Positions 27,966-44,780 are shown, counted from the first letter of the stretch. The stretch: 64,000 nt of DNA from Acidobacteriota bacterium (GCA_016210845.1 JACQTK010000041.1:1781-65780), one strand, 5' to 3'. Notes: a model not told the origin generated them from the sequence alone. Made by a program: numbers and translations.

Positions 27966-28437
27966 GGCAGGGGAGTCTACACTCAAGCGGCCGATCGCTG
28001 CTCGCGCAACAATCGCTCCAGCAGTGCGGGCACGATCACGGCGTCGATGAACCGCTGCAACTCCGGAGATGAGGGCCGCGGCTCCCTGTTTGCACGTGCG
28101 GAGGTCGTGTGGGTGGTTCGTCGTTCACCATCCTGAGCCATGTGTGACCAGCAGCGCTGATCCGGCACGCATGCCGAACCGGGCCGATCGCGCGCTCGTC
28201 ATGCCGACGATGTCACGCGTCTCGTTACGCAGCATCGGGATCGCTCCCGTCGCAGGAGTCGAGGGTGAGGGTGACTGCGGGTCGCAGGCAGTCCCCTCTT
28301 GGAATGACGAACTGGTAGCTCTTGCCGGCGTGGAGCGTCAGCCGACGCCGCTCCTGGCCGATCACTTCGCAGGTCAGCGTGAACTCGAAAAAGCCGTGCT
28401 TCAAGCCGTCGTGAATTTCCGCGAGCAGGAGTTGGTG

Positions 28438-29150
28438 GGCCGTCCGGGCAAGCAGCCCGACGGCTCCGCCAGGACGCGCGAGGTCAAGCTGTGCACGGTC
28501 TGGAGTGCCGAGGGCCGCGACGAGGACGGCACACCCGTGCGCGACGAGGGGTCGATCAGCTACTCGGCCGCCATCGAGAGCGCGGCCCAGAAGGACACCG
28601 ACGAGGTGCCGAGCGAGTTCGCGGCGCGCGTCGAGCGCGAAACCACGCGGCGCGCCTTCGACCGCGCGGCGCGCCGGGCCGTGCTCGGCGATGGGGCCAC
28701 GTGGATCTGGAACCTCGCCACCGAGCACTACCCTGACGCTGTCCAGATCGTCGACCGCTTCCACGCCAAGCAGCACCTCTCGGACGTGAGCAAGTCCGTC
28801 TACGGGGCGGGCAGCGACCGGGGCGCGCAGTGGGCGCGCGCGCGCCACGACGAGTTGGACGCTGGCGACATCGATGCCGTCCTGACCGCCGTACGCGTGC
28901 ACGCGCCGAAAGACGAGGAGGCGCGCACGTGCGTCGGGTATGTCGAGGACAACCGTGCCCGCATGCGCTACGCCGAGTTCCGGGCGGCGGGGCTGTGCAC
29001 CTCGACCGGGGTCGTCGAGGCGGGATGCAAGGTCGCGATCGGGACGCGCCTCAAGCGCGCCGGCATGCACTGGACCGTGGCGGGCGCCGACGCCATCATC
29101 CCGCTGCTGCAAGCTCAGCGGACGCTTCGAGGACTTCTGGGAGCGCCGCG
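28438..29150 (+). pseudogene. ISKra4-family transposase fragment (N-terminus missing, 3' frameshift)
   Basis: Reads ...LGDGATWIWNLATEHYPDAVQIVDRFHAKQHL...RMRYAEFRAAGLCTSTGVVEAGCKVAIGTRLKRAGMHWTV. The terminal ...CCKLSGRFEDFWERR lies in another frame (ORF 28940..29173). Confidence 0.6.
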
Positions 29151-29151
29151 C

Positions 29152-29790
29152 TCAGCACCGGCTGGCCGCATGACCGCCCGTCATCTCACAATCGTGACGT
29201 GCGCCCGGGTCCGCCTTCGGATCCGGCAGCACGTAGTCCCGGATGTCCCCCGTCCGGGGATCGAGCCGCCCGATGCGGTTCGGGACACTGCGGTCGGTGT
29301 ACCAGACGTTGCCGTCCCGATCCAGGTAAGGCTCCTGAGCCCGGCGTGAGGTGTTGTTCTTGTCGAGCTCTGGATCGAGAGGCAGGTAGTACTCGACGTA
29401 CATCGCCTGGGCCAACGCCCGTTCGTCGACAGGGTAATCGACATCCACACGAAGCGCGCGGCGCGCGCTGCCCGGGCCGAAGTTCGCCGTCAGGTAGCTG
29501 AGGATGGCTTCCCGGTCGGTCTGACTCACGGTGCCCTGCGGAACCATGGTCGCCTGGTTCGCGGTTCTGCTGGTCATCAGCGTGATGGCGCTGTTCCACT
29601 GCGCCGCCGTCAGTTGGCGAGACGGAAGAAGTTGGGGCCATGGCAGTAGACGCAGTGCTTCAAGAGCGCGTCCCGCTCCGGTCCGGCGGGATACAGCTCG
29701 TCATGGGGCACCAGGGGAATCCCTCGGGCGTTCAACGCCGATTGCTGGGCCTCGGCCGGAACCTCCTTCGATCTCGGTCAGCGCATCGAA
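29152..29790 (-). pseudogene. remnant of a cytochrome c + beta-propeller protein, frameshifted and 3'-truncated by the IS fragment
   Basis: Heme motif KHCVYCHG (about 29.64 kb) is in one frame. RQLTAAQWNSAITLM...REAILSYLTANFGP...NVWYTDRSVPNRIGRLDPRTGD is in the next frame (ORF 29152..29577). Confidence 0.5.
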
Positions 29791-29839
29791 CAGCTTCGGG
29801 CGGTGAGCACACTGGTGTACAACGATGGTCTCCGAGGGA

Positions 29840-30289
29840 ATGGCCAAGATCGGTCGCAACGACCCCTGTCACTGCGGGAGTGGCCTGAAGTACAAGCGGT
29901 GCTGCCTGCCGCGTGAGGAAGCCGCCGCCGCCGCGCGGGCCGTGACGCGTGCGCGCGAGGCGGCACCCGGCCTCGCCACCTCGGTGGAGATCGTAGCGGA
30001 GAACGATGGCCTCGACGAGGCGTCGAATCGCCCGATCGACCTCATCGACGCGGGACGACTTGACGAGGCTGAACAGGCGGCCTACGACCTCCTACAACGC
30101 TACCCCCAGGTGCACGATGGGCTCGAACGCCTGGCGATGGTCTACGCCGCCCGCGGCGATCGCGTCCGTGCCGCCGAGTACTATCGCAAGGCTGCGGACT
30201 TCGTCCTCGTGCACGGCGATCCGTACGACCTTGCGATGCACACCTATCTGCGAAAGCGGGCGGCGGCATTGGACCCGCCGATTCGGTGA
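29840..30289 (+). CDS. SEC-C motif protein
   Basis: MAKIGRNDPCHCGSGLKYKRCC is a SecA-type metal-binding motif at the N-terminus, followed by a helical TPR-like remainder. GAGGG lies upstream. Confidence 0.7.
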   Translation: MAKIGRNDPCHCGSGLKYKRCCLPREEAAAAARAVTRAREAAPGLATSVEIVAENDGLDEASNRPIDLIDAGRLDEAEQAAYDLLQRYPQVHDGLERLAMVYAARGDRVRAAEYYRKAADFVLVHGDPYDLAMHTYLRKRAAALDPPIR

Positions 30290-31503: not shown

Positions 31504-31690
31504 CTAGCCTACTGGCGCCGTCGTCCCTGAACGTCCGCCGTGCTGGGCCGTCCGCAGGTAGTTATCGATCTCGTAAGGACTGAACCGGAAGTGGCCACGT
31601 TTCCCAAAGCGCGGAAGGTGCGGCACAGGATACGCGGCGCTGATCTTCCTCACCTGACTGCGTACTTCGTGAACGCGGAGCCCGCCGCTT
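31504..31690 (-). pseudogene. excisionase-type HTH fragment (no start codon)
   Basis: Tail of ORF 31504..32091 reads ...VHEVRSQVRKISAAYPVPHLPRFGKRGHFRFSPYEIDNYLR, which resembles Xis/AlpA-family DNA-binding domains. It overlaps the end of the NHL gene. Confidence 0.35.
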
Positions 31691-32804
31691 CGAGCGATGC
31701 CGGCCCCTCGGCCGCGTACACGTTGCCGTCGGCGTCGACTGCCACGCCCTCGCCTGCCACACCCTGGTACGGCCGGCTGTCGGACTCCCACGGCGGAATA
31801 AAGCCCACGATCCAGTCCCGGTCGACGTGTCCGATGCGGATGCCGTCTCTCCAGTTGGGGTGGTTGGTCATCGCCGACTCGGAGTCGATGGTGTAGACCA
31901 TGTCGTCGTCGGTGATGTAGAGCCCGCTGATGCGACCGTACGCGTAGCGCGAGTCCAGGTAGTTGCCCTCCTGGTCGTAAATCTCGAGACGATGGTTGCC
32001 GCGGTCGGCGATCCAGAGCCGGCCCTGGGAGTCGAACTCCAGTGCGTGCGGCGTGCGGAACTCCCCGTGCAGCGTGCCGATCTGGCCCCACTCCATGAGG
32101 TACTTGCCCTCAGGCGAGAACTTGACGATGCGGGCCGTCATCGCGGCGGCACGTCCCTCGGCAATCGCCTGGGCCGACGTCATTCCCTGACCGCTGTGGC
32201 CGTCGGCCACGTAGATGCTCCCATCCGGGCCGACGATGACGTCGTTTGGCTGGTTGAGCTGGCCGGGGACACTACCTGGCTGACCCGCGACGCCGAGGCT
32301 CAGGAGCAGCTCTCCTGTCGGGCTGAACTTGTGGACCTGGTGCCCCTTCGTGCCGGTCGCGTTTCCGGCGAAGTCGGTGACCCAAACGTTGCCCTCCTGG
32401 TCCACGTGGATGCCGTGCGGGGTCACGAAGACACCGGCGCCGAAGTTCTCGAGGATCTCCCCCGTGTTCCGGTCGAATTTGAAGATCGGATCCACCGGGT
32501 TGTTGTCGCAGTTCACCCCCGGCCCTCCGGCCGAGCCCGAGCCGCACCGCTCGTAGGCCCAGACGTGCCCGTCGGTCGGGTCGATGTCGATGCCGGCCGT
32601 CGAGCCCCACTCGCGTCCTTCGGGCAGGGTCGCCCAGTTCCCGATCCGCGTCGGGTTCGGGTTCGGGATTCCCTGGCCCGTGATCGGGTTCGGGTACGTC
32701 TCCGTTTCTTCCGTTCCCGAGTTCGCTGGGTCCGCCGCACAGCCCGTGAGGACGGCGCCGGAGAAGGCGGCGAGCGCAAAGATCAGAGCGCGGCGCAGTG
32801 ACAT
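31650..32804 (-). CDS. NHL-repeat six-bladed beta-propeller lipoprotein
   Basis: Internal ATG (MSLRRALIFALAAFSGAVLTGC) of ORF 31650..32870. Has repeated ...P.G...D..GN.WV.D... blades. Confidence 0.8.
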   Translation of the reverse strand: MSLRRALIFALAAFSGAVLTGCAADPANSGTEETETYPNPITGQGIPNPNPTRIGNWATLPEGREWGSTAGIDIDPTDGHVWAYERCGSGSAGGPGVNCDNNPVDPIFKFDRNTGEILENFGAGVFVTPHGIHVDQEGNVWVTDFAGNATGTKGHQVHKFSPTGELLLSLGVAGQPGSVPGQLNQPNDVIVGPDGSIYVADGHSGQGMTSAQAIAEGRAAAMTARIVKFSPEGKYLMEWGQIGTLHGEFRTPHALEFDSQGRLWIADRGNHRLEIYDQEGNYLDSRYAYGRISGLYITDDDMVYTIDSESAMTNHPNWRDGIRIGHVDRDWIVGFIPPWESDSRPYQGVAGEGVAVDADGNVYAAEGPASLEAAGSAFTKYAVR

Positions 32805-32894
32805 GGAAGCCTCCTTCGCGGTGAAAAGCGGAAAATCAATAATTCTCCCGGACCGGCTGCCTTCGGTCAAACGTGCGGCCGATCCGGGCGAAAG

Positions 32895-33320
32895 TCAGGC
32901 GCTTGCCGAGAAGGTTTGTCCCGGCACATGTCCGGAGGCCATCCGCCGCGCGGCCGTGCTCTTCGAGACGCCCCACAGGTCCGCTGCCTGCCGCACCGTG
33001 AGACCCGCTGCAGCCACCTGGGACGGCGTTTGGCGTCGAGGTCGGCCGGCAAAGCCCTCTTCCCTTGCGCCTTGGCGCGTTGTAGGCCCGCCGGGACGCG
33101 GGGTGCGGTTGGCTGACTTGGTCGAGTTCGAGAAGTAGCCCTTCGACCCGTCCGCGGTGGGGAAGCGTTCCGGTAAACCCTTTCCTTTCGCCCGTATTAC
33201 GGATCGCCCGATAACCGCCTTTTCGCCTCTCACAGCAGGTTGTCCCCAAAGGGGTTGTTTGAGGAACGATAGGCCGGCGGTCACAGCCGGCGGCGCCATG
33301 CCGACCCCCACGTTCGGCAA
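32895..33320 (-). pseudogene. possible HTH remnant (resolvase/transposase-type)
   Basis: Only the C-terminal ...GRPRRQTPSQVAAAGLTVRQAADLWGVSKSTAARRM looks protein-like. Confidence 0.25.
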
Positions 33321-33438
33321 GCACAGCGTATCGACGGAGGTCGTAACGCGTTAGCACTCCCTGGGTCTTCCTCGCCGCCTTCCTTCTCGGACCCTAAGGG
33401 CAGCCCGTAAGCCCATGTAGAATCGGCCGGGACCACTG

Positions 33439-36400
33439 ATGAAGATTCTTGCCGATCGATTCGTCCTCTCCGATGCCGAACCTCGGAAGGGGGGCATGGC
33501 CGAGGTCTATCGAGCGGCCGATCACCAAGACAACCTAAAGCCGGTCGCGATCAAGTTCATGAAGGGTTCTCGGATTCACGACGACCGAATCCTGCGAGAA
33601 GCCTTCAGCCGGGAGTTGTCGGCACTGCACGAGCTCGACCACCCCAACATCGTCAAGATCATCGACTTCGATCCACGTTACGACCCTCCATATATGGTGC
33701 TCGAGTGGCTGGATCGCGACCTCGGCGCGTACCTCGACACAATCGTGCTCCGCGGCTGGGATGACTTCTACGCCAGGATCGGCCGTCCCGTTCTCGACGC
33801 GCTTTCGTATGCGCTGACCAAGCGCCTTGTGCATCGCGACCTCAAGCCGGGCAATGTCCTCTTTGACGACCATGGCACGCCGAAGGTCGCGGACTTTGGA
33901 ATCTCCAGGTTTTGCGTTCAGGGTCCGGGAGGCCTCACTCTGGCTGCTTTCAAGTCCGAACCGTACGCTCCGTTCGAGGAGTCCGCGTCCTACGAGTCCC
34001 GCGACCCCTACTCGTTTGCTGTGCTCGCGCTTCGTTGCTTCGCTATGCGTGAGCTGACTTCGCACGAGGAGGTTGCAGCCGCGCTCCGAGACTTTGTGGG
34101 CCCGCCCGAGATTAAAGAAGTGCTGCACCGAGCGCTGCATCAGGAATCGGCGGCGCGCTTTCCCAGCATCGTCGAACTGCAGGGTGCGTTGGAGAGAATA
34201 GGGGCTGCGGATCGAGGTCAGCAGAAGGATGTTCGCGTCTGCTATGTCGTCGTGTTCGACCAGGCGCTCACTCGCCTCGCTCAACAGATCGGCGAGGACG
34301 ATCTGAGCAAGATCCGACGCGTTCTTGAGCGGGACATGGCCGAATCCTGCTCATTCTTCTTCTGGCGCGACAAGGAGTCCGGAAAGAAAGTAGAGCAGCA
34401 CTTCCTTGCGCGCACCTCTCAATTTGGTCTGAGGTTGGCCGTGCGCGAGAAGTCGGGAGATCACCTCGTCCTGCAGACCGCGTGGCTCGAGGAGTCCGAG
34501 GGGCGCGAAGCACACGGCGACTTCGGCTTTCATGCACCCGTCACGTTTAGGTTCGGCACACCACCCGTTGGATCCGACGGCGTTCCGGTTATCAGGTGGT
34601 TGCTCGACGCCCTCCAACAGCACGAGCTTGACGATGCAGACGCGCGCCGCGCCAGAAAAGAAGAAGAGGTCCTGCGCGAGTGGGCTAGCACGCTACGTTT
34701 CCGTCAGCACCTGGACGAAGGTCGTCATTTGCCGGTCGCCTATGACGGATGTCGCGTTGACGGAAACCGCGTCAGCTTCTCCATCTCTTTGCTGCCGGAC
34801 GGTGTCGTGCTCGATCAGCCACGCATGATCCGCCGCGATCAGCGCACCGTGCTGTCCGGTGTAGTCGACGACATCGCGGTGGATCGTCTTGTCCTCTGGG
34901 TCGAGAGGGGCGTGTCCGAGTTCCCTCCCGAAAAGGGCCAGTTGATCCTCGACGACCGCGCCAGCCGCGTCGCAATCGACAGACAGAAGGGAGCGCTCGA
35001 TGCGGTTCGGTATGGCCGTTGCCTTCGTCCATCCTTGCGGGCGCTGATCCTCGATCCGGGCCAGTCACGAGCGCCCTCACCTTTCGATGACCGAGAAGTG
35101 AAGTGGATCCACACCGAGTTCGACGATGACAAGAAGGTAGCCGTGTCAAAGGCGATGGGGGCTGAAGACGTCCTCGTTGTGCATGGGCCTCCTGGTACAG
35201 GCAAGACCGTCTGCATCACTGAGCTAGTGGCACAACTCCTCGAGCGCAATCCGGACTGCAAGATCCTCTTGACCTCCCAGACTCACGTCGCGCTGGACAA
35301 TGCGCTCGAGCGGCTCCATGCACTGCGCCCCGCCGCACGGCTCCTTCGAGTCGCCCAGCGCGACGACGACCGCGTCTCGGCGAAGGTGCAGGAATTGACG
35401 ATCGATCGCGTCGCGGATCGATGGCGATCCGACGTGGCCAAGGCCTCGGAGGAGTTCCTTGCTTCAGCAGCAACTGAGATGGGTGTTAAGCGCGAGGACA
35501 TCGCCCTCGGCATCGCCGTCGGTCGGCTGCGCGTCGAGTCCGCGGAACTCGACCGCATTCAGGCTCACCTGGACGAGTGCGAGAAGATCCTCTCGGCGGC
35601 CGAGCAGAAACTCGTCGAAGCCCAGGTTGGTCACGTTGCTGACACCTACCCGGAAACGAGTGAAGAAATCGACGAGCTGCGCGAACAGGCGCGGGAGTTA
35701 CGCGAGGACAAGAAGACCGTCGGTGCAAGACGGCGCAAGGCCGCCCGAGCGCTCGAGGCTACTGGCGAGCTTGGTGTTCAGCTGTCGGCTGTTGGGACGA
35801 GCGAACTTGCCGAGTGGGAACTGGGCCTCCTCGCAGGGAGTCCCGCGGACCGGAAGTTCCATGAGATTCTTCGACTTGCGGAGGAGTGGCAGCTCCGCTT
35901 CGGTCGTTCGCGTGAGTTTTATGCAGCGATGATTGCGGACTCGTCGGTGGTGGCGGGCACGTGTCTAGGATTTGCCCGCGTCCCAGGGATGCTCTCAGCC
36001 GAGTTCGACGTCTGCATCGTGGACGAGGCATCGAAGGCAACGCCGACCGAGTTGCTCGTCCCCCTTTCCCTCGCGCGGCGTTGGATTCTCGTGGGGGATC
36101 CGAAGCAGCTCCCACCCTTCGTCGAGGATCTCTTGGACGATCCGGGCCTTCTGAAGGACTACGACCTTGACCGCGAGTCGTTCCAGACGACGTTGCTGGA
36201 TCGCTTCGTAGCTGCTCTCCCTGAAGCGTGTATAGCGTCCCTGAAGACCCAGCATCGCATGATCCAACCTATCGGCGACCTGATCAGCGAGTGCTTCTAC
36301 GGTGGTGCGCTGAACAGCGTCCGTCACGAGCGGGACGAGTGCCTTCGCATGGTGATGCCGAAGCCAGTGACGTGGCTGACAACCGCTCGACTCCAGCGGC

Positions 36401-36879
36401 ACGATGAAACCGAGTTCGACAGAAAAAACTTCAAGAATGTTGGCGAGGCACGAGTCATTGGGCAGTGGCTCCGACGGCTCGACTTCATCGCCAAGGCGGC
36501 CGGAACAACGTACCGCGTGGGGGTGATCAGCGGATACGTCGGCCAATGCACCGAATTACGGCGCATCGTCGCCTCGATCCAGCAGACCAGTTCCGCCCTA
36601 TCCATCGAGTGCAACACGGTGGACGCTTTTCAGGGGCGCGAGGTCGATGTGTGCATCTACTCCGTCACTCGTTGCAACGAACGTGGCGTGATCGGATTCT
36701 TACGTGATGAGCGTCGGATGAACGTCGCACTGTCACGTGGCCGCAGTGGCCTACTGATAGTGGGCGACCATCTCTTCTGCCGTACAGCCAAAAGTCCAAA
36801 CCCGCTGCGCACGGTCGTCACTTACATCGACAATCATCCAGACGATTGCACAATCGAGGAAGTGCGGGCGAACGCATGA
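33439..36879 (+). CDS. Ser/Thr protein kinase fused to an SF1 Upf1/DNA2-like helicase (Mokosh MkoA-like)
   Basis: Kinase motifs: VAIKFMK, HRDLKPGNVLF, DFGISR. Helicase motifs: VVHGPPGTGKT, CIVDEASKAT, ILVGDPKQLPPF, TQHRM, VDAFQGREVDV, NVALSRGR. Confidence 0.9.
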   Translation: MKILADRFVLSDAEPRKGGMAEVYRAADHQDNLKPVAIKFMKGSRIHDDRILREAFSRELSALHELDHPNIVKIIDFDPRYDPPYMVLEWLDRDLGAYLDTIVLRGWDDFYARIGRPVLDALSYALTKRLVHRDLKPGNVLFDDHGTPKVADFGISRFCVQGPGGLTLAAFKSEPYAPFEESASYESRDPYSFAVLALRCFAMRELTSHEEVAAALRDFVGPPEIKEVLHRALHQESAARFPSIVELQGALERIGAADRGQQKDVRVCYVVVFDQALTRLAQQIGEDDLSKIRRVLERDMAESCSFFFWRDKESGKKVEQHFLARTSQFGLRLAVREKSGDHLVLQTAWLEESEGREAHGDFGFHAPVTFRFGTPPVGSDGVPVIRWLLDALQQHELDDADARRARKEEEVLREWASTLRFRQHLDEGRHLPVAYDGCRVDGNRVSFSISLLPDGVVLDQPRMIRRDQRTVLSGVVDDIAVDRLVLWVERGVSEFPPEKGQLILDDRASRVAIDRQKGALDAVRYGRCLRPSLRALILDPGQSRAPSPFDDREVKWIHTEFDDDKKVAVSKAMGAEDVLVVHGPPGTGKTVCITELVAQLLERNPDCKILLTSQTHVALDNALERLHALRPAARLLRVAQRDDDRVSAKVQELTIDRVADRWRSDVAKASEEFLASAATEMGVKREDIALGIAVGRLRVESAELDRIQAHLDECEKILSAAEQKLVEAQVGHVADTYPETSEEIDELREQARELREDKKTVGARRRKAARALEATGELGVQLSAVGTSELAEWELGLLAGSPADRKFHEILRLAEEWQLRFGRSREFYAAMIADSSVVAGTCLGFARVPGMLSAEFDVCIVDEASKATPTELLVPLSLARRWILVGDPKQLPPFVEDLLDDPGLLKDYDLDRESFQTTLLDRFVAALPEACIASLKTQHRMIQPIGDLISECFYGGALNSVRHERDECLRMVMPKPVTWLTTARLQRHDETEFDRKNFKNVGEARVIGQWLRRLDFIAKAAGTTYRVGVISGYVGQCTELRRIVASIQQTSSALSIECNTVDAFQGREVDVCIYSVTRCNERGVIGFLRDERRMNVALSRGRSGLLIVGDHLFCRTAKSPNPLRTVVTYIDNHPDDCTIEEVRANA

Positions 36880-38327
36880 CGCTAGACGAAATCGCCAAGC
36901 GCCTCGACAACCGTGCCGGCTACGAGCTGATCACGTATGGGGAGGTCGGTCTCCCGATGTTCGGAGTTTACGCGACCGCACTGGTCCTGGAGAGCCAGGA
37001 ACGGAATTGCATCGAGGAGTTCACTCTTCGCGCGCTCTCGGCGGGCCTCGATACCTCCGCGCAGATCCAAGGAATCTTGGGTCTGCCCCGGAGCATCATC
37101 GATACGACGCTTGCTGATCTCGTTCGACAGGAAGCGCTTCGCACCGCCAGCGACAGCGATCAACTGCTCCTCACGGAGCGTGGCAAGCAGCTCGTCGGTG
37201 CCACAGCAGTGGTCTCTCCTTCTGAGCAGACCATCTGGTTCCCTTTCGATGGATTGCTGCGCAGGCCGAAGTGGTACGGGGGTACAGCGTTCCTCAAACC
37301 CAATGAGGCCAAGGAACAGGGGCTTCCGCAGTTAAAGGCAATACCGACTCGAGGGCCGGCAGTCGACGAGCTGTCCGCAGCGGATGTCTCCGAAGTCATA
37401 CGGCTCGCTGTTGGCGCTAGCCGCGGGGAACGCGAAGTCCTGCGAGTGGTGACGATCGAGAAGCGCTTTCGCCAGTTCCTGCCGGCGGTCGCCCTCGTCT
37501 ATCGCGCGCTCGAACGCGATGACTTGCAAGTTGGCTTCGCGATTGACGGGCGCATCTCTCAGGAGCACGAGCTCGCGTTCGCACGTGGCGGCGGTCTCGA
37601 ACGACAGCCAATCTTTGAGGGACTGCAGGAAAAGGTACGACCTCCAATCGACGACGTTCTCGGGGGCCGCGTCGCCGAGATGGTCGAAGCCGCCGAAGCC
37701 CTTCGCAAGAAGGCGGCTCGTGTAACGACTTCGCGGTCAGCGCTCGACATGGCGTCGCTCGCGGTGGTCAGGGCGCAGTCTGGGGCCCAACGTGCGGAAG
37801 CTGCTGCTGCAGAGGAGCAAGCCCGTGATGAACTCGCAGAGGTCGAGGCCAACCTTCAGAAAGCTCCTGTACGGCCCCTGCCCGTGTATGAGCATCCGGC
37901 GATCCTCGACGAAGCAGTCTCCAGCGCGGCTAAGCGCCTCCTGATTCTGTCACCCTGGGTCCGCCGAGCTGTAGTGGACGACGCGTTTCTTCGCAATCTC
38001 CAACGTGCTTGTGAGAGAGGCGTACGAGTCTCGATCGGTTTCGGTCTAGGAGAAGCCGACCTTGGGGAAAAGGCTTGGGACGCCGAGGCCCGGCGAAAGC
38101 TCGAGAACCTGTCGAAAGACGTGCCGCTGCTCGAGGTGCGTCGCCTTGGCAATACGCATGCGAAGGTGCTCGTCAAGGACTCAGAGTTCTTCGTCATTAC
38201 AAGCTTCAACTGGTTGTCTTTCCGGGGAGACCCGTCGAAGCCGTTCCGGGAGGAGTGGGGAACCATAGTGCGCGACCCGATACTCGTGGACGACTTCTAT
38301 GCCGAGATCATGAAGAGATTCGCATGA
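36876..38327 (+). CDS. HKD/PLD-family nuclease-like protein with long N-terminal region (Mokosh MkoB-like)
   Basis: ATG 36876 overlaps the upstream TGA (ATGA). Has a single HxK(x4)D motif, NTHAKVLVKD at nt 38157-38180, followed by ITSFNW. Confidence 0.85.
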   Translation: MTLDEIAKRLDNRAGYELITYGEVGLPMFGVYATALVLESQERNCIEEFTLRALSAGLDTSAQIQGILGLPRSIIDTTLADLVRQEALRTASDSDQLLLTERGKQLVGATAVVSPSEQTIWFPFDGLLRRPKWYGGTAFLKPNEAKEQGLPQLKAIPTRGPAVDELSAADVSEVIRLAVGASRGEREVLRVVTIEKRFRQFLPAVALVYRALERDDLQVGFAIDGRISQEHELAFARGGGLERQPIFEGLQEKVRPPIDDVLGGRVAEMVEAAEALRKKAARVTTSRSALDMASLAVVRAQSGAQRAEAAAAEEQARDELAEVEANLQKAPVRPLPVYEHPAILDEAVSSAAKRLLILSPWVRRAVVDDAFLRNLQRACERGVRVSIGFGLGEADLGEKAWDAEARRKLENLSKDVPLLEVRRLGNTHAKVLVKDSEFFVITSFNWLSFRGDPSKPFREEWGTIVRDPILVDDFYAEIMKRFA

Positions 38328-38406
38328 ACAGGGCGAATGTGTTTCGAAAACACCTGTCTGCGGGACGCCTTTCCAGGCGGTCTGACCCGTCCAGAGTCCC
38401 CAAGAA

Positions 38407-39008
38407 TCAGACTCCCGTCCCGAGAGGATTGCGGGACACCCTTGCCCGGTGAAGAACCGAGCACGGGACTCCGACCGCGGCGGCTGCTTTTCGGGTTGAA
38501 AGGTCGGCAACCCGCAGCAGGTCTGCGTCGCTGATTCGGTGCGGTCGTCGTCCGAGCCGTTGCCCCTGCGCCCTGGCTCGCGCCAGACCGGCGCGCACCC
38601 GCTCCGCGATTCTTTCCCTCTCGAATTGATGGCACCAAGGACGGCCATCTGGAGACGTCCAGCGGGAGTGGTGGCGTCGATTCCTTCGTTTAATGATACA
38701 AACCCAATCCCGAGCGCAGAGAGGTCCTCGAGCGTTACGACCAGATGCCGGAGGTTCCGACCCAGGCGGTCGAGGCGCCAGACGATGAGCACGTCGAAGC
38801 GTCGACGTCGAGCGTCTTTCAAGAGGGCGTCGAGCGCGGGCCGACGGTCCTTCGCGCCGGATACGCCCCGGTCTACGTAATCGACGGCCGTCCAGCCTCG
38901 GGCGTCGACGTACCGGTGAAGCTCGAGAAGCTGGTTGTCGCACGTCTGGTCTGCCGTGCTGACGCGCGCGTAGATGGCCGCGCGCAAGGTTGTCGGGGAG
39001 GTGGTCAT
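38407..39008 (-). pseudogene. small serine recombinase (resolvase/invertase) with a 1-nt frameshift near 38.64 kb
   Basis: MTTSPTTLRAAIYARVSTADQ...RLDRLGRN...QMAVLGAI is in the frame of ORF 38181..39245. ...QFERERIAERVRAGLARARAQGQRLGRRP plus the HTH is in the frame of ORF 38407..38943. Confidence 0.8.
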
Positions 39009-39340
39009 GGCCGCTCCTTCGTGAAGAGACGGCCGGTGGCGGACTGCTAAGATCGGCGCAGCCTCGTCAGCCGGTCGATTCGGTTGACAGGTTAGGGTCG
39101 GGTCACAGTTCCTGCTGTGGCTCGGCCCGTCTTTCCCTTTCTGTATCGCGTTCAGAGACGCAGTGCAAGGGCTTTCTGGAGTGACTGGGCGGCGAAGGTT
39201 GTACGTAGGACCAACCCTGTCACCCCATCGGCCTATCCTCCACAAGCTAGAATGCCGCAGCCCGGGAAGGTTAATGGCCGCGCGTCGGGTGCTGTCACGC
39301 TCCGCCCTGGTCGGTCACCTTTAGATACAAGCCTCTCCCC

Positions 39341-42300
39341 ATGGACGTCTTTGATCTTCGCACTCGGCTCGTCGAGGATTACGCGCGTTACACGCGCAGC
39401 TTCATCAAGATTGCCGACCCTCGCGTCAAGGCGAAGGTCGATGGAGCATTGGACGACGGCGCCCTCTGGCCGGAGCCTCTTCTTCAGCTGAACCCGACAT
39501 TTCTGCCGGGCGGGACGATCGACGATCTGGTCGCGGACGGAACTCTGCATCCGGAGTGCAAGAAGATCTTCCGGATCGACAAGTCTGATTCAGACCACTC
39601 CGGCAAACAACTCCTGCTGCACACGCATCAGACCGAGGCGATCCGGAAGTCGAAGGAAGGCAAGTCGTACGTCCTGACAAGCGGAACAGGTTCTGGCAAG
39701 AGCCTCACCTATATCGTTCCGATCGTCGATCACGTGCTGAGATGCGGCTCAGGCAAGGGCATCCAGGCGGTCGTGGTGTATCCGATGAACGCGCTGGCGA
39801 ACAGCCAGGTGGAGGAACTCAGAAAGTTTCTCGAAAAGGGATTCGGCCCGGGTCAAGCTCCCGTGAAGGTTCGCCGGTACACCGGGCAGGAGAAGGGGGA
39901 CGAGCGGGAGGCGATCCGCAGCAACCCGCCGGACATCCTCCTCACGAACTACATGATGCTGGAGTTGCTCCTCACACGGCGTGAGGACCGCGCGCTCATC
40001 AAGGCGGCGCAAGGCCTCCGGTTTCTGGTGTTCGACGAGCTTCACACCTATCGCGGCCGGCAGGGGGCTGACATCGCGTTGTTGATCCGCCGGTGCCGGA
40101 TTGCCTTCAGCGGGCACGACCTCATCTGCGTCGGAACGTCCGCCACGATGGCCAGCGAGGGCTCGGCGCTGGATCAGAGAAGAGAAGTCGCGCGGGTCGC
40201 AGAGACGCTGTTCGGAGCCTCGGTCAACGAAACGCAAGTCATCGGCGAGACACTCGAGCGTGCGACACCCGAGCTGACGTGGGCGCCGCCCCATCGGGAG
40301 GCGACGAAGAAGTCGTTGGTGGAGAGTGTGTTGTCCACGACGAGTCCCCCAGCCGACTACGAGTCATTCCGCGCGCATCCGTTGTCCAGTTGGATCGAGT
40401 CCACCTTCGGTGTTCAGGCAGAAGAGGGGACGGACCGGCTGATTCGGCAGGCTCCGCGTCGTCTGCGAGGGCCCGACAGTGCCGCGGCCGAACTTGCGGA
40501 GCTGGCAGGCGTTGACGCCGGCCGCGCGTACGAACTGCTGCGATCGTTTCTCCTGCAGGGGGCTCAGCTTCGGCGCTCAGAGTCGAGTCGGTTCCCGATC
40601 TTCGCGTTTCGCCTGCACCAGTTCCTCACCCGCGGCGACACGGTCTGGGCCACCATCGAGCCCGAGGCCGACCGCCATCTCGAGTTCGCAAAGCTGGTAT
40701 CGAAACCCGGTGAGCCAGACAAGACACTGTTCCCATTGGTGTTCTGCCGACAGTGTGGAACCGCGTATTACCGGGTCACTGTGTTCACGGACAAACAGGG
40801 GCGTGGCCTGGCACCACGCGAGGACCGGCGCGAAGAAGTCCTTGAAGGTCACTCCGACGCCTATCTGTACGTCTCACAAGCGACGCCCTGGCCAAGGGGC
40901 GACGAAAAGGCCCTACTGGATCGACTCCCGTCATCGATGAAGGAATCGATGGGAGATGGAACTGAGCGGGTTCGAGGCGATTCGCGCGGGGACCTGCCCG
41001 AGCCCACCTTCGTCGATGCGACCGGCCGCATGGTGCCGGAGGGCATGGGGGTTGCCGCAGCTCTGATCCCTCGCAACTTTCTGTTCTGCCTGGAGCCGGC
41101 CTGCGGCGTGGCTTACGTCAAGACGCAGCGGTCGGAGCGGGCCAAGCTGGCGACGCTGGGCGTGGACAACCGGAGCACAGCAACGACCGTGCTGGCGGTG
41201 CGGGCTTTGCTGGACCTCCAGAGCGACCGTGACCTGAAGCCTGAGGCGCGAAAGCTGCTCAGCTTCACGGACAACCGGCAGGATGCGTCGCTGCAGGCCG
41301 GCCACTTCAACGACTTCACGCAAGTGGCTCTGCTCCGGTCGGCGCTGTACAAGGCGGCGGCGGAGAAGGGTCCGAGAGGGCTGTTGCACACCGACCTCTC
41401 CGGAGGTGTATTCGATGCGCTCTCGCTGAACTTCAGCGACTACGCCGCCGACCCGGAGATCCGGGGGCCAGCACGGACCTCCACCAACGACGCGCTTCGG
41501 CGCGTCATCCAGTACCACGTCTACCGGGACCTCCAGCGCCTGTGGCGTGTGACGGCGCCGAACCTCGAGGACTGCGGTCTCCTGAGGTTTGAGTACGAAG
41601 GGTTGGCCGGCACGGAAGGGTTGCTCGAAGAGTCGGAATTGTGGAGTCGCGGGTTCTCGGTGCGAGAGGGCCGGAACGCGGAGGTGTTTGTAGAGACTCC
41701 CGAGCCTCTTCGCCTGTGCCCACCCGAAGTACGCCAGGAGCTCGCGACGACCTTGCTCGATGTCCTTCGGCGGAACCTCGCGCTTAAGGTCCCAGTGCTG
41801 GATCCGCTGCAGCAGCGTGACTTGGTCGATCAGACACAGCCGCGTCTCCTCGAAGGCACCATGTGGTATCTCGACGAGCTTCGCGAACTGCAACAGTCTG
41901 TGGTGGCGTATGCGCGGGCGCGCCAGAACAGCGACTCCTCAGGCCTGTTCATCTCGTCGTACGGCGGCTACGGACGCTACCTGCGCCGCCGGCTCAAGGG
42001 GTACGTGCCGCAGGGAGATGTCTTTGGCCGCGCCGAGGTGGACGCCGCCATCCGCTTCCTCCTGCTTGCCCTGAAGCGTTACGGCATCGTCGAGCAGGTG
42101 CGAGGTGGTGACGTTCCTGGTTACCAGATCAATCCCGACGCTCTGCGGTGGGTGGCCGGCGCAGGCGACGAACGGCCGCTGGACCGTACGCGACTTCTCG
42201 ACGCTGGCGAAATCCCGCCGCAGGTGAACGACTACTTCGTCGAGTGCTACAGGCGTTTTGTCGATCTGAAGGCCAGGCTTGAAGCCAGGGAGCACACAGC

Positions 42301-42928
42301 CCAGGTCACGGCGGAAGACCGGCAGGAGCGGGAGGATCGATTCCGATCGGCGGATCTGCCACTCCTGTTCTGCTCGCCGACCATGGAACTGGGCGTCGAC
42401 ATCGCGCAGCTCAACGTGGTGAACCTGCGAAACGTCCCGCCGACGCCGGCCAACTACGCTCAGCGAAGCGGCCGCGCAGGCCGCGGGGGCCAACCCGCTC
42501 TGGTCTACACCTACTGCGCCGGGCGGAGTCCCCACGACCAGTACTACTTCCGCCAGCCTGAAGACATGGTGGCGGGATCAGTGGCTGCGCCGCGAATCGA
42601 TCTCCGGAACAGCGATCTCGTGCGTTCGCACCTGCACGCGTTGTGGATGGAAGTCGCCAAGCCAGACCTTGGGAAGATCCTGCCCGCAAAGGTGCAGGTC
42701 GAATCGGTCACCGGGCTGCTGCCGCCTTCCGAGCGCGAGGCGCGAATCGCGAGGCTCGCCGCCGAGCCTGGCGAGTATGTCCTCGTTTGTACTGATTGTC
42801 TGTCCGAGGGCATCAACCTCCAGCAGCACTTCAACGCGGTGCTGCACTACGACCTTGCCTGGAACCCCACGCGCCACGAGCAGCGCGAGGGCCGCGTCGA
42901 CCGCTTCGGCCAAACGCGCGGTGGATGA
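39341..42928 (+). CDS. DExH helicase of the DUF1998-associated defence type (DrmA/DruE/YprA-like), ending in a foreign SNF2-type RecA2 fragment
   Basis: Has [20 protein letters not shown], zinc ribbon FCRQCG...[26 protein letters not shown] and [10 protein letters not shown]. The last 75 or so aa read [33 protein letters not shown]. Confidence 0.85.
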
Positions 42929-44780
42929 CCTCGCGACGCTTGGCGATGCGGAACTGCGCGCCATGTTTGCCGAGGGGACGGCGTACTCAACGTTCTTCGA
43001 AGACAACTACGCCATGGTTCTGCTTGGCGCCAGGCCCGGAGGTGTGGCCGATGCTTTGGCGAAGGTTCTTGGGCTCGAGGCGCGCTCGCTCTCTCTCGAG
43101 ATTCGCCGCCGAGCCGCGAAGTACATCGGTCGAGCGAAGAGGCTTCAGCGAGCCGACCGAATGGAGGCAGCTCAAGCGGCGGCGCTCGAGCTCTTGAAGG
43201 AGCGCCAGGATGCCCTGGGAGAACACGCACGAATCATCTGGCACGAACGGTTCGAAACGTCCATCCGCAAGGCCTCTGCTAGTGAGGCTCCCGACGTCAC
43301 AGACGCATTGGAGCAGGCGACATTCTTCACCGAGATCCGGCGGCCCGATCGCGAAGCGTTGCGAGCGGCGCTGTGGCCCGAACCCCGGCCTGGTTCCGAG
43401 CGCAAGCGGTTTCGTGAACAGCAGCAGCGAAGCCAGGTGCTGGCGACTGTGGCGCGGCTGGGGCACTCGTTGATCGACTTGTACGTCCTCACGGTCCAGC
43501 GGCTCGGAAGCCTCGAGCAGCGAACCCTTGAAGCCGAGGGTGACGAAGGCGACGCGCTGGATCGCCGGCGCATCGACGAGTACCTCGACGTGCTGGAACG
43601 GCAGCGAGTCACGCCTCTTGGTGAGCGAGGCTGGGCGGCGTTCGACGAGCTCTCTCAGATTGCCCGGCACTTCGACTTGATTCTCGATGTGAACGCCCCT
43701 GAGGCTCGCGACATGCCTCTCGTTGAAACCGCGCGCTACTTCGGGTCGATCCTGCGACAGCAGCAGCCGGTCGGTGGGATGTTTGGCCAGGTCAACCGAA
43801 CTCTTGTCCAGCAGTTCCGAATGCCGGGCTATCCCTTCGTCCTCGTCACCACCGACCTACTGCAGGAAGGGGAAGACCTGCATACCTTCTGCTCCGCGGT
43901 ACATCACTACGGCATCGCCTGGACGCCATCGTCGATGGAGCAGCGCGTTGGACGGATCGATCGCGTGCGCTCACAATCCGACCGTCGTCTCTCAGGCCTT
44001 CCAGCTATCCCGAACGGCGGGGACTTGCTGCAGGTGCACTACCCACACCTCGAAGACACCGTCGAAGTCCTTCAGGTGCAGCGCGTCCTCGAACGGATGA
44101 ATACGTTCTTGCGCCTCATGCATGAGGGACTGTCGGTGCCCAAGGGCGATCACCGGCGCGTTGACGTCGGTCGGGAGATGGTCGAGGGCCGTCGGACCAT
44201 TGAGGCGATCCGTGGGCGGCTCCAGAGTGCCTTTCCAATTCCAGGTTGGGCGCTTCAGGGAGGAACGCGGACGCTGGCCACTGACGCCGGTACGGCGGCA
44301 GGAGTACTCGCCCGATTCGAGCGGCTGTCAGGGGTTGAGTACACCGGTCTGTCGATTGAATGGGAGCCGTCTCTTCGGAACGGCATCCTGCTGGGCACGG
44401 TGAGGCTCTCGACCGGCCGGATTCAACCGTTCGGCCTGCTGCTCAAGTCCGATGGCGAGATGCTCCTCGTCAGATGCGTGAGCCCAGTGGGCCTCGTCGA
44501 TCCGGGTTCCACGATGCAAGCTGTTGAAGAGAGCGCGCGGCTGCGCCACGTCCGGATCGGCGCGATTGTCGGACGCGACGAAGCGTCGTATGACCTGACC
44601 GTTGAGGAAGATGTTCTACTGGCGCATCCGGAGCACGACGTGTCGCGCGTCGCGATCCTCCTGCGACGCGTAGCTGACCAGGCCGACAGCCTCGAACAGA
44701 TCCATCTGCCCTCGCTTGACCAACCGCTCGATGCGTTTGAAGCAGATCTCAAGCAAGAGGGAGGCGCCAACCGTGCCTGA
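42921..44780 (+). CDS. helicase C-terminal-lobe-only protein with extra C-terminal domain
   Basis: GTG 42921 sits in a GTGGATGA overlap with the upstream stop. There is no Walker A. Has [15 protein letters not shown]...[18 protein letters not shown]. The upstream part of track ORF 42669.. is an out-of-frame overlap. Confidence 0.65.

What the first reader, a model, noticed from the sequence alone, without database searches (positions are those of the whole stretch)
33439..38327. Ser/Thr kinase::Upf1-like helicase fusion plus HKD (PLD) nuclease partner: a Mokosh type I-like two-gene defence candidate
The 1146-aa ORF has three parts. The N-terminus is a Hanks-type kinase with intact catalytic motifs (VAIKFMK, HRDLKPGNVLF, DFGISR). 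Next is an unassignable linker of about 300 aa. The C-terminus is a complete SF1 Upf1/DNA2-type helicase (GPPGTGKT, VDEASKAT, VGDPKQLPPF, QHRM, VDAFQGREVDV, NVALSRGR). Its TGA overlaps the ATG (ATGA, 36876-36879) of a 483-aa ORF. That ORF's C-terminus carries a single HxK(x4)D motif (HAKVLVKD, nt 38157-38180), and its first 330 or so aa are unassigned. The pair sits in a horizontally acquired island next to recombinases and a second helicase module. A COG1112-type helicase plus a PLD nuclease is the defining combination of Mokosh (Millman et al. 2022). As I recall, the type I helicase gene there also carries an STK domain, and the parts parallel the piRNA factors MOV10L1 and Zucchini. To my knowledge the mechanism is still poorly understood. 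This high-GC version is a divergent case, with a long linker and a large extra N-terminal region on the nuclease partner.
Basis: partly seen in the sequence, partly recalled or inferred. Interest (0 to 1): 0.8.

Follow-up and report, generated by a model that had tools for sequence, protein, structure and literature searches.

The report
Typical Mokosh type I defence pair
This is an intact two-gene Mokosh type I anti-phage system, a kinase-helicase protein plus a PLD-type nuclease, on a 4.9-kb mobile cassette in an Acidobacteria genome; it is a standard member of a described family, not a divergent version.

Summary

ORF1 matches the PADLOC MkoA model end to end (E 2.4e-220, residues 3-1143 on profile 6-1110 of 1112). 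ORF2 matches MkoB (E 1.7e-71). Kinase, helicase and HKD catalytic residues are invariant across 64-67 homologues. In 77 of 77 testable genome loci an MkoA gene lies directly upstream of MkoB. Both genes are under purifying selection (dN/dS about 0.1).

The claim that this is a divergent case is not supported:
- The "300-aa linker" is folded and family-typical. It comprises an alpha/beta domain plus Upf1-type stalk helices and a beta-barrel.
- The "extra" MkoB N-terminus is a conserved winged-helix/beta region covered by the MkoB model.
- Homologues have the same lengths.

The pair is a tight 4.94-kb cassette. It is 92.6% identical to a copy elsewhere that sits beside a type I R-M system. Here it lies in a low-GC island among serine recombinases and a truncated DruE-like helicase.

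Verdict: a new, unannotated member of a known system. The mechanism of Mokosh I remains unresolved in the literature, but this locus adds little that is new. Interest is low.

The parts
33410..38348 (+). Mobile two-gene Mokosh cassette (shared block)
   Evidence: blastn finds 92.6% nt identity to metagenome locus L005, confined to window 33410-38348. That runs from 29 bp before the mkoA ATG to 21 bp after the mkoB stop. The flanks are unrelated. In L005 the block sits between ParB/serine-recombinase genes and a type I R-M operon.
33415..33422 (+). TGTAGAAT, an extended -10-like box 17-24 nt upstream of the mkoA ATG (putative promoter; inferred)
   Evidence: It is conserved as TGTAGAAT in L005 and TGTAAAAT in L001, although upstream sequence is otherwise unrelated. 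The consensus scan requires a -35 hexamer and did not flag it. Function is not shown.
33439..36879 (+). mkoA: Ser/Thr kinase fused to an Upf1-like SF1 helicase, 1146 aa
   Evidence: PADLOC MkoA PDLC03920 matches at E 2.4e-220, aa 3-1143 on profile 6-1110 of 1112. AF2 mean pLDDT is 86.7. dN/dS is 0.11 against L005.
33439..34221 (+). MkoA Hanks-type kinase domain (aa 1-261)
   Evidence: Pfam Pkinase at E 4e-24. A profile search against PDB hits PknB, StkP and PknA at E 1e-44 to 1e-52. Invariant in 67 homologues: K39, H132/R133/D134, N139, D152/G154, T167, D189, R240.
34222..34563 (+). MkoA alpha/beta domain (aa 262-375), the only truly unassigned part of the 'linker'
   Evidence: AF2 predicts it folded, with pLDDT mostly 84-93 (one 10-residue block at 61): strands 266-272, 305-310, 317-325, 329-335, 343-350, 368-372 and helices 274-284, 289-302, 353-360. 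It is the most variable region (mean identity to the window 0.24) but is still under purifying selection (omega 0.10-0.13). No Pfam hit.
34564..35118 (+). MkoA stalk helices and beta-barrel (aa 376-560), Upf1-family accessory module (1B-like)
   Evidence: AF2 predicts helices 382-428, a barrel at 433-504 and a helix at 507-524. Foldseek alignments to IGHMBP2, SETX and Upf1 span about 765-787 columns (E 1e-28 to 3e-32), so I infer the helicase module starts near aa 375-390. The PADLOC long-MkoA model aligns from aa 493.
35119..36879 (+). MkoA SF1 helicase core (aa 561-1146), RecA1 and RecA2
   Evidence: AAA_11 at E 3e-40 and AAA_12 at E 1.5e-40. PDB profile hits: IGHMBP2 1e-75, UPF1 3e-68, DNA2, SETX, Sen1, ZNFX1. 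Invariant: G583-T590 (Walker A, except G588 which is nearly invariant at 90% or more), D862/E863, Q890, Q938/R940, Q1065/G1066, R1100.
35380..35940 (+). Large helical insertion in RecA1 (aa 648-834; Upf1 1C-like, coiled-coil)
   Evidence: AF2 predicts long helices at 655-681, 685-731, 736-773 and 802-822. An insertion is also present at the same place in the E. coli long-subtype MkoA, where the BLASTP alignment runs through it.
36876..38327 (+). mkoB: winged-helix plus single-HKD PLD nuclease, 483 aa, translationally coupled (ATGA)
   Evidence: PADLOC MkoB PDLC03922 at E 1.7e-71. The PLD part also matches the type II MkoC C-terminus at E 1.1e-16. AF2 mean pLDDT is 88.2. dN/dS is 0.15 against L005.
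36876..37625 (+). MkoB N-terminal beta-rich region with embedded winged helix-turn-helix (aa 1-250; wHTH about aa 45-110)
   Evidence: AF2 predicts helices 45-55, 61-68 and 72-84 with a wing at 88-99, set between long beta-hairpins. The profile weakly hits MarR/ZitR wHTH structures at E 1e-3. 13 of 64 homologues hit wHTH-PRTase_assc. P27, L68 and D125 are invariant. This region is the only part alignable to the E. coli long-subtype MkoB (E 3e-4).
37665..37865 (+). MkoB long helical connector (aa 264-330)
   Evidence: AF2 predicts helices 264-279, 281-299 and 303-329. It is the least conserved segment.
37866..38324 (+). MkoB PLD-fold nuclease domain (aa 331-483), with HxK(x4)D at nt 38157-38180
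   Evidence: PLDc_2 passes the gathering cut-off and is hit in 64 of 64 homologues. H428, K430, D435 and S443/N445 are invariant. Foldseek hits PLD, PLD3, NucT (TM 0.62 on target), Zucchini and TrmBL2 at E 1e-4 to 7e-7.

Best explanation
The two genes are an intact, expressed-as-an-operon Mokosh type I anti-phage system of the 'short' subtype. MkoA is an N-terminal Hanks kinase fused to an Upf1-like SF1 helicase. MkoB is a winged-helix protein with a single-HKD PLD nuclease domain. The pair travels as a self-contained 4.94-kb cassette between mobile elements and defence islands.

Shown here:
- family membership
- intact catalytic residues in all three enzymatic domains
- translational coupling
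- strict co-conservation of the pair
- purifying selection on every domain
- horizontal mobility

Known from the literature for other family members:
- Mokosh protects E. coli from phages, and protection needs the helicase ATP site and the PLD active site (Millman et al.).
- T4-like phages need DNA glucosylation and the Alt ADP-ribosyltransferase to escape Mokosh I (HIDEN-SEQ preprint).

Inferred mechanism (about 40% confidence as a whole):
1. The MkoA helicase module, with its 1B-like barrel and enlarged helical insertion, loads on a phage-derived single-stranded nucleic acid or RNA/DNA hybrid and translocates using ATP.
2. This engages MkoB. MkoB must dimerise through its single HKD domain to build one active site, as Nuc, NucT and Zucchini do. 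It uses its wHTH to hold nucleic acid.
3. MkoB cleaves phage nucleic acid.
4. The kinase acts as a switch or amplifier. It either autophosphorylates (invariant activation-loop T167) or phosphorylates MkoB or other targets, rather than serving as a passive appendage.
For: Membership and anatomy:
- MkoA PDLC03920 at E 2.4e-220 over the full length; MkoB PDLC03922 at E 1.7e-71; the MkoC PLD region at E 1.1e-16.
- Pkinase, AAA_11, AAA_12 and PLDc_2 all above gathering cut-offs.
- invariant K39, HRD, DFG, Walker A and B, Q and R motifs, and H428/K430/D435/N445.
- confident AF2 models with Upf1/IGHMBP2/SETX and PLD/NucT/Zucchini structural matches.

Co-conservation and selection:
- five distinct homologous contexts (six loci; L001 and L002 are the same locus) all have a 483-491-aa PLD partner with a 4-bp overlap.
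- 303 related loci in GTDB genomes. Of the best 80, 77 of 77 with upstream DNA carry MkoA directly upstream on the same strand.
- dN/dS of 0.02-0.20 in every domain.

Mobility and context:
- cassette boundaries.
- a type I R-M system adjacent in the 94%-identical copy.
- low-GC island.

Literature:
- definition of the system and mutant data.
- Alt and glucosyltransferase dependence.
Against: - No experiment exists on this locus or, as far as I could establish, on this exact subtype from a high-GC organism.
- The trigger, the substrate (RNA or DNA) and the role of the kinase are unknown for the whole family. Mokosh I resisted purification, and a 2026 review still lists Mokosh as incompletely characterised.
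- The PLDc_2 score is only just above threshold (28.8 against 27).
- The neighbouring island genes are decayed: a truncated DruE and a truncated recombinase. Inactivity through lack of expression therefore cannot be excluded.
- The promoter assignment rests on conservation of one 8-nt box only.
- I could not model the MkoA-MkoB complex.
Confidence: 0.82

Rival explanations
1. Same family, different logic. The kinase is the main effector. The helicase senses phage nucleic acid and unleashes broad Ser/Thr phosphorylation of host and phage proteins, arresting growth (abortive infection), as described for stand-alone defence kinases. MkoB is an accessory or secondary nuclease.
For: - The kinase catalytic residues are invariant and the domain is under purifying selection.
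- The kinase domain matches many PD-T4-6 and MAD6 defence-kinase models at E 1e-12 to 1e-33.
- T4 Alt, which modifies host proteins, contributes to escape from Mokosh I.
Against: - In tested Mokosh systems the PLD active site is required for defence.
- Type II Mokosh works without any kinase.
- MkoB is strictly co-conserved with MkoA.
- The E. coli long subtype has an atypical HGD kinase motif, which suggests kinase chemistry is not the universal effector.
Confidence: 0.11
2. The pair is not a defence system. It could be a housekeeping or mobile-element function, for example RNA surveillance or turnover as with Upf1, or a cassette maintenance or competition module.
For: - The helicase is most similar to eukaryotic RNA-surveillance helicases.
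- In some loci (L003, L004) the neighbours are ordinary metabolic genes.
Against: - Distribution is patchy: 303 loci among 185,579 species genomes, across unrelated phyla.
- The pair is a tight mobile cassette with foreign GC.
- It sits next to R-M, toxin-antitoxin and recombinase genes.
- It matches models built from a family shown to defend.
Confidence: 0.04
3. The pair is an intact-looking but functionally dead relic in a decaying island, silent or recently inactivated.
For: Adjacent genes are visibly degraded: a DruE-like helicase truncated at about aa 1110 and fused to foreign fragments, and a recombinase that reads into the cassette.
Against: - There are no frameshifts or stops and the start codons are conserved.
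- All catalytic residues are intact.
- dN/dS is 0.11-0.15 against a 92.6%-identical copy.
- The upstream -10-like box is conserved.
Confidence: 0.03

Closest known systems
Mokosh type I, 'short' subtype (PADLOC MkoA PDLC03920 + MkoB PDLC03922; Millman et al. 2022)
   Same: - Same two-gene order.
- MkoA is an N-terminal STK plus a COG1112/Upf1-like helicase of about 1110-1170 aa.
- MkoB is about 480-490 aa with a C-terminal single-HKD PLD domain.
- Full-length HMM match and 4-bp gene overlap.
   Different: Nothing architectural. This copy comes from an Acidobacteria MAG, has 61% GC, and its MkoB is annotated as 'hypothetical protein' in NCBI. It covers profile positions 4-380 of the 610-position MkoB model in its best stretch, so the model includes insertions that this protein lacks.
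Mokosh type I, 'long' enterobacterial subtype (PDLC03921 + PDLC03923), e.g. E. coli H240 locus L087
   Same: - Two overlapping genes in the same order.
- The helicase core is 29% identical, including the helical insertion.
- The MkoB N-terminal winged helix is shared (E 3e-4).
   Different: - The E. coli MkoA is 1656 aa, with an N-terminal NERD domain and an atypical kinase (HGD in place of HRD).
- Its 478-aa MkoB gives no Pfam PLD hit and does not align to the window's HKD region.
Mokosh type II (MkoC; single polypeptide, helicase then PLD; e.g. E. coli yjhR)
   Same: The helicase and PLD modules are homologous: MkoC model at E 1.4e-33 on MkoA aa 953-1122 and E 1.1e-16 on MkoB aa 333-468.
   Different: Type II is one gene with no kinase and, as far as the domain descriptions go, no wHTH region. 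It was reported to be monomeric and to defend only against an ssDNA phage.
Upf1-like SF1B helicases (UPF1, IGHMBP2, SETX/Sen1, DNA2, ZNFX1, MOV10L1)
   Same: RecA1/RecA2 core, stalk plus 1B-type barrel, and an insertion in RecA1. Foldseek E 1e-23 to 3e-32, TM up to 0.70 on the target. Profile E 1e-50 to 1e-75.
   Different: MkoA is fused to a kinase and an extra alpha/beta domain. It has a much longer helical insertion (about 190 aa) and lacks the CH, R3H or nuclease domains of the eukaryotic proteins.
Single-HKD PLD nucleases (Nuc, NucT, Zucchini/PLD6, BfiI-type)
   Same: One HxK(x4)D...S.N motif per chain on a PLD fold. Dimerisation to form one active site is therefore expected; this follows from established knowledge of the family.
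   Different: MkoB carries a 330-aa N-terminal wHTH/beta/coiled region and is obligately paired with a helicase gene. The parallel with piRNA MOV10L1 and Zucchini is domain-level only.
Stand-alone defence Ser/Thr kinases (PD-T4-6, MADS MAD6)
   Same: The Hanks kinase domain matches at E 1e-12 to 1e-33 over aa 3-160 or 17-260.
   Different: These models cover only the kinase domain. The window protein has the helicase and a nuclease partner, so it is not a member.

Membership tests
Mokosh type I | MkoA contains a COG1112/Upf1-like SF1 helicase domain with an intact ATP site | tested here: met
   AAA_11 at E 3e-40 and AAA_12 at E 1.5e-40. UPF1, IGHMBP2 and SETX match by sequence profile and by fold. 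Walker A G583-T590, D862/E863 and R1100 are invariant, except G588 which is nearly invariant.
Mokosh type I | The helicase gene additionally carries a Ser/Thr kinase domain (Millman et al.) | tested here: met
   Pkinase at E 4e-24, aa 17-207. PknB and StkP match at E about 1e-45 to 1e-52. K39, HRD132-134, N139 and DFG152-154 are invariant.
Mokosh type I | A separate adjacent gene encodes a PLD-family nuclease with an HKD active site | tested here: met
   PLDc_2 at 28.8 bits against a cut-off of 27, hit in 64 of 64 homologues. H428, K430, D435 and N445 are invariant. PLD fold by Foldseek. ATGA overlap.
Mokosh type I | Significant match to the family-specific MkoA and MkoB profile HMMs | tested here: met
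   PADLOC PDLC03920 at E 2.4e-220 (732.8 bits, full length) and PDLC03922 at E 1.7e-71 (240.3 bits). DefenseFinder's own models and thresholds were not available.
Mokosh type I | The two genes are co-conserved as a unit | tested here: met
   The partner is present in all five distinct homologous contexts examined, six loci in all. MkoA lies directly upstream in 77 of 77 genome loci that have upstream DNA.
Mokosh type I | Association with defence islands or mobile elements | tested here: met
   The 94%-identical copy sits next to hsdM/S/R and serine recombinase/ParB genes. In the window the pair lies in a low-GC island with recombinases and a DruE remnant. L003 is near HipA and Phd toxin-antitoxin genes. 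This is qualitative only; no enrichment statistic was computed.
Mokosh type I | Confers phage resistance that depends on the helicase ATP site and the PLD active site | not testable with these tools
   Shown for other members only.
Mokosh type II | A single polypeptide with an N-terminal helicase and a C-terminal PLD, and no kinase | tested here: not met
   There are two ORFs and a kinase domain. The MkoC model matches only partially.
Mokosh type I, long (enterobacterial) subtype | An approximately 1600-aa MkoA with an N-terminal NERD domain (PDLC03921), paired with PDLC03923 MkoB | tested here: not met
   PDLC03921 aligns only to aa 493-1142. There is no NERD hit. PDLC03923 scores only E 2.3e-8 over aa 26-109.
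DISARM DrmC | Score above the NCBIfam or PADLOC DrmC thresholds, in a drm operon | tested here: not met
   NF038319 scores 34 bits against a cut-off of 133. No Drm partners are adjacent.
Druantia type III (for the neighbouring helicase) | Full-length DruE (about 1700-2050 aa) with an adjacent DruH | tested here: not met
   Homology stops at about aa 1110 of proteins that are 1700-1790 aa long. No DruH hit was found among the neighbouring ORFs scanned.

The most novel reading that the evidence does not exclude
The winged-helix N-terminal region of MkoB, not the PLD domain, may be the conserved core of MkoB. It is the only part shared between the two Mokosh I subtypes. In that reading MkoB is the nucleic-acid recognition subunit, and its nuclease is licensed by MkoA-catalysed phosphorylation after helicase engagement. 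That would make Mokosh I a kinase-gated helicase-nuclease, a control logic not yet described for nuclease-NTPase defence systems. This compact, high-GC, well-folding orthologue could then be the tractable model that the E. coli system has not been.
Probability: 0.15. Interest if true: 0.55.

Novelty: new member of a known kind. Interest (0 to 1): 0.2.

Why it matters
For genome annotation, this turns a 'hypothetical protein' pair in an Acidobacteria MAG into a named defence system. It shows that the short Mokosh I subtype is spread over Cyanobacteria, Actinomycetes, Alphaproteobacteria, Acidobacteriota, Planctomycetota and other phyla.

For the field the gain is modest:
- a residue-level domain map of MkoA and MkoB, with only aa 262-375 of MkoA still unassigned and a wHTH in MkoB
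- exact cassette boundaries (33410-38348) suitable for cloning
- a list of invariant residues to mutate

The mechanism of Mokosh type I is still open and the E. coli system resisted purification. An alternative orthologue could therefore be useful, but nothing here changes what is known about the family.

Tried and rejected
- Divergence hypothesis (long linker, extra nuclease N-terminus). Rejected. The HMM covers the full length, homologue lengths are the same, and the regions are folded and conserved.
- A solved Mokosh structure. None is found by sequence. Only generic helicase, kinase and MarR hits appear.
- NCBIfam. There is no Mokosh-specific model and every hit is far below its cut-off, which explains the uninformative public annotation.
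- A third conserved gene. The flanks of homologous loci share nothing.
- Flanking direct or inverted repeats or att-like sites around the cassette. Only short chance-level matches turned up.
- Rfam scan of the whole window. No hits at gathering threshold.
- Sigma-70 consensus scan. It found nothing upstream of mkoA. The -10-like box rests on conservation alone.
- Exact-sequence contig look-ups for P0113 and P0065 returned nothing.
- Direct comparison with the experimentally tested E. coli H10407 MkoA. I could not retrieve that sequence. An E. coli H240 locus was used instead and proved to be the other (long) subtype.
- Intact Druantia next door. Rejected; the DruE homologue is truncated.

Full report
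**Observation**

The window contains two co-oriented ORFs exactly as described: 33439-36879 (ATG, 1146 aa) and 36876-38327 (ATG, 483 aa). The stop of the first overlaps the start of the second in ATGA at 36876-36879.

Pfam confirms the domains:
- Pkinase, E 4e-24, aa 17-207
- AAA_11, E 3e-40, aa 561-895
- AAA_12, E 1.5e-40, aa 916-1111
- For the second ORF, PLDc_2 at 28.8 bits against a gathering score of 27, aa 346-446

**Identity**

Against PADLOC-DB, ORF1 matches the MkoA model PDLC03920 at E 2.4e-220, with residues 3-1143 aligned to profile positions 6-1110 of 1112. ORF2 matches MkoB PDLC03922 at E 1.7e-71, and its C-terminal 135 aa also match the PLD end of the type II protein MkoC at E 1.1e-16.

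The published definition of Mokosh is a COG1112/Upf1-like RNA helicase plus a PLD nuclease. In type I the two are separate genes and the helicase gene additionally carries an STK domain. Defence is abolished by mutations in the helicase ATP site or the PLD active site (bioRxiv 10.1101/2022.05.11.491447).

**Catalytic competence**

In an alignment of 67 full-length MkoA homologues (28-94% identity) the following are invariant:
- Kinase: K39, H132-R133-D134, N139, D152/G154, the activation-loop T167, D189 and R240
- Helicase: G583-T590 (except G588, which is nearly invariant), D862/E863, Q890, Q938/R940, Q1065/G1066 and R1100

In 64 MkoB homologues H428, K430, D435 and S443/N445 are invariant. 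All 64 hit PLDc_2.

**Not divergent**

About 100 homologue clusters have the same architecture at 1130-1170 aa. MkoB homologues are 450-510 aa, mostly 480-495.

The AlphaFold2 model of MkoA (mean pLDDT 86.7) shows that the '300-aa linker' is folded:
- an alpha/beta domain at aa 262-375
- two stalk helices at aa 382-428
- a beta-barrel at aa 433-504

Foldseek aligns about 765-787 columns of MkoA to IGHMBP2, SETX and UPF1 (E 1e-28 to 3e-32, TM up to 0.70 on the target). From that span I infer that the Upf1-type module, stalk and 1B-like barrel included, begins near aa 375-390. This matches the 756-residue 'helicase domain' Millman et al. delimited in E. coli MkoA. Only aa 262-375 remains unassigned. 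It is the most variable segment but is still under purifying selection. A 190-aa helical insertion (aa 648-834) sits in RecA1.

The MkoB model (pLDDT 88.2) has three parts:
- an N-terminal beta-rich region with an embedded winged helix (about aa 45-110). It gives weak MarR/ZitR profile hits, and 13 of 64 homologues hit a wHTH Pfam family.
- a long helical connector at aa 264-330
- a PLD fold at aa 331-483 that matches PLD, PLD3, NucT and Zucchini

This N-terminal region is covered by the MkoB HMM (profile positions 4-380), so it is canonical and not an extra.

**Co-conservation, selection and mobility**

In all five distinct homologous contexts retrieved by exact protein look-up (six loci; L001 and L002 are the same locus), a 483-491-aa PLD partner follows MkoA with a 4-bp overlap. 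Identity to the window ranged from 34% to 94%.

A scan of one genome per GTDB species found 303 loci encoding MkoB relatives. They fall in Cyanobacteria, Actinomycetes, Alphaproteobacteria, Acidobacteriota, Planctomycetota, Gemmatimonadota and other phyla. Of the best 80:
- 67 have a full-length kinase-helicase directly upstream on the same strand
- 7 have one that is cut by the contig end
- 3 have partial or near-full copies
- 3 have no upstream DNA

That makes 77 of 77 testable loci.

dN/dS against a 92.6%-identical copy is 0.11 for mkoA and 0.15 for mkoB, and ranges from 0.02 to 0.20 in every domain.

Nucleotide similarity to that copy (L005) is confined to 33410-38348, from 29 bp before the ATG to 21 bp after the stop. 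The flanks are unrelated. In L005 the cassette sits between serine recombinase/ParB genes and a type I R-M operon. An extended -10-like box, TGTA(G/A)AAT, lies 17-24 nt upstream of the ATG. It is the only conserved upstream element, and its function is inferred.

**Context**

MkoB is 100% identical to an NCBI 'hypothetical protein' from an Acidobacteria MAG. The pair lies in a low-GC island:
- GC is 0.61-0.65 in the island against about 0.69-0.71 outside it.
- GC3 of the two genes is about 0.70, against 0.85-0.95 in core genes.

The island is bounded on the left by an intact large serine recombinase (26496-27986) and on the right by cofD (45477). The neighbours are decayed:
- The recombinase ORF at 38181-39245 has only a catalytic domain and reads antisense into the cassette.
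- The 'second helicase module' is a DruE-family gene truncated at about aa 1110 of an expected 1700-1790. It is fused to a foreign Helicase_C fragment and followed by another fragment. No DruH is present.

**Subtypes**

An E. coli locus (L087) represents the other PADLOC subtype:
- MkoA is 1656 aa, with a NERD domain, an atypical HGD kinase motif and the helicase (PDLC03921).
- MkoB is 478 aa (PDLC03923) and gives no Pfam PLD hit.
- With the window proteins it shares the helicase core (29% identity) and only the MkoB winged helix (E 3e-4).

The window belongs to the short, canonical STK-helicase + PLD subtype.

**Mechanism**

Shown here are the anatomy, the intact active sites, the gene coupling, the co-conservation, the purifying selection and the mobility.

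From the literature:
- Defence depends on the helicase ATP site and the PLD site.
- T4-like phages need DNA glucosylation and Alt to evade Mokosh I (10.1101/2025.11.20.689424).
- Mokosh I could not be purified, and Mokosh II is monomeric and narrow in range (10.1101/2025.07.10.664194).
- A 2026 review still lists Mokosh as incompletely characterised (PMC13276650).

My inferred model has four steps. The Upf1-like module senses and translocates on phage single-stranded nucleic acid or hybrids. MkoB dimerises through its single HKD domain. MkoB binds nucleic acid through its wHTH and cleaves it. The kinase, which is invariant in sequence, gates or amplifies the response.

The main rival is that kinase-driven phosphorylation is itself the effector. 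A non-defence role and a dead relic are both unlikely.

**Verdict**

This is a correctly identified but ordinary Mokosh type I system: a new member of a known kind that standard defence-annotation tools would call automatically. Interest is low (0.2). The residual value lies in the domain map, the cassette boundaries and its possible use as a tractable orthologue.

Noticed in passing
window 39341-44780 (+): The DruE-family helicase ORF (1195 aa) is truncated. Its homologues are 1700-1790 aa and align only up to about residue 1110. The last 75 aa or so are a foreign second Helicase_C (DpdE/DrmD-like) that ends just after motif VI. The next ORF (42669-44780, in another frame) carries a third Helicase_C (PDC-M27C-like). 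No DruH is present. This looks like a recombined and decayed helicase region, or a MAG assembly chimera.
   Followed up: partly
window 38181-39245 (-): This serine-recombinase ORF has only the catalytic domain (Pfam Resolvase, aa 89-208). Its best NCBIfam hits are the N-termini of large serine recombinases (CcrB, XisF). Its last 55 codons or so run antisense into the conserved Mokosh cassette, convergently overlapping mkoB by 147 nt. It is probably 3'-truncated at the cassette junction.
   Followed up: partly
window 26496-27986 (-) and 28069-29349 (+): An intact large serine recombinase (Resolvase + Recombinase + Zn_ribbon_recom) and a weak transposase-like ORF lie at the left edge of the low-GC island. 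cofD at 45477-46478 marks the return to core genes. No att repeats were found.
   Followed up: partly
L087 (E. coli H240, NZ_OL790696.1 2842194-2855156): The enterobacterial Mokosh I subtype differs strongly. MkoA is 1656 aa, with NERD, a kinase carrying HGD in place of HRD, and the helicase. Its 478-aa MkoB has no detectable Pfam PLD domain and shares only the N-terminal winged helix with the window's MkoB. The record is a 4.8-Mb chromosome filed as a plasmid, and nothing is annotated at this locus.
   Followed up: partly
window 33415-33422: TGTAGAAT (TGTAAAAT in L001) is the only conserved element upstream of mkoA in otherwise unrelated flanks. It may be an extended -10 promoter giving a very short leader.
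   Followed up: partly
window 1141-1232 (+): ARAGORN calls a 92-nt tRNA-Tyr, but the Rfam gathering-threshold scan of the window reports no tRNA or any other family. It may be a false positive or an atypical gene.
   Followed up: no
window 32895-33010 (-): The C-terminal tail of an ORF reads LTVRQAADLWGVSKSTAARRM, a helix-turn-helix-like motif typical of IS or recombinase DNA-binding domains. It lies in the 570-bp gap upstream of mkoA and is probably a mobile-element remnant.
   Followed up: no
window 29825-30289 (+) and 31650-32870 (-): Two other island ORFs were noted. One is a small SEC-C motif + TPR protein with weak PADLOC hits (PDC-S12, E2-like) through its SEC-C motif only. The other is an NHL-repeat beta-propeller protein with a signal-like N-terminus and core-like GC3 (0.86). 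Neither is linked to the Mokosh pair in other loci.
   Followed up: no
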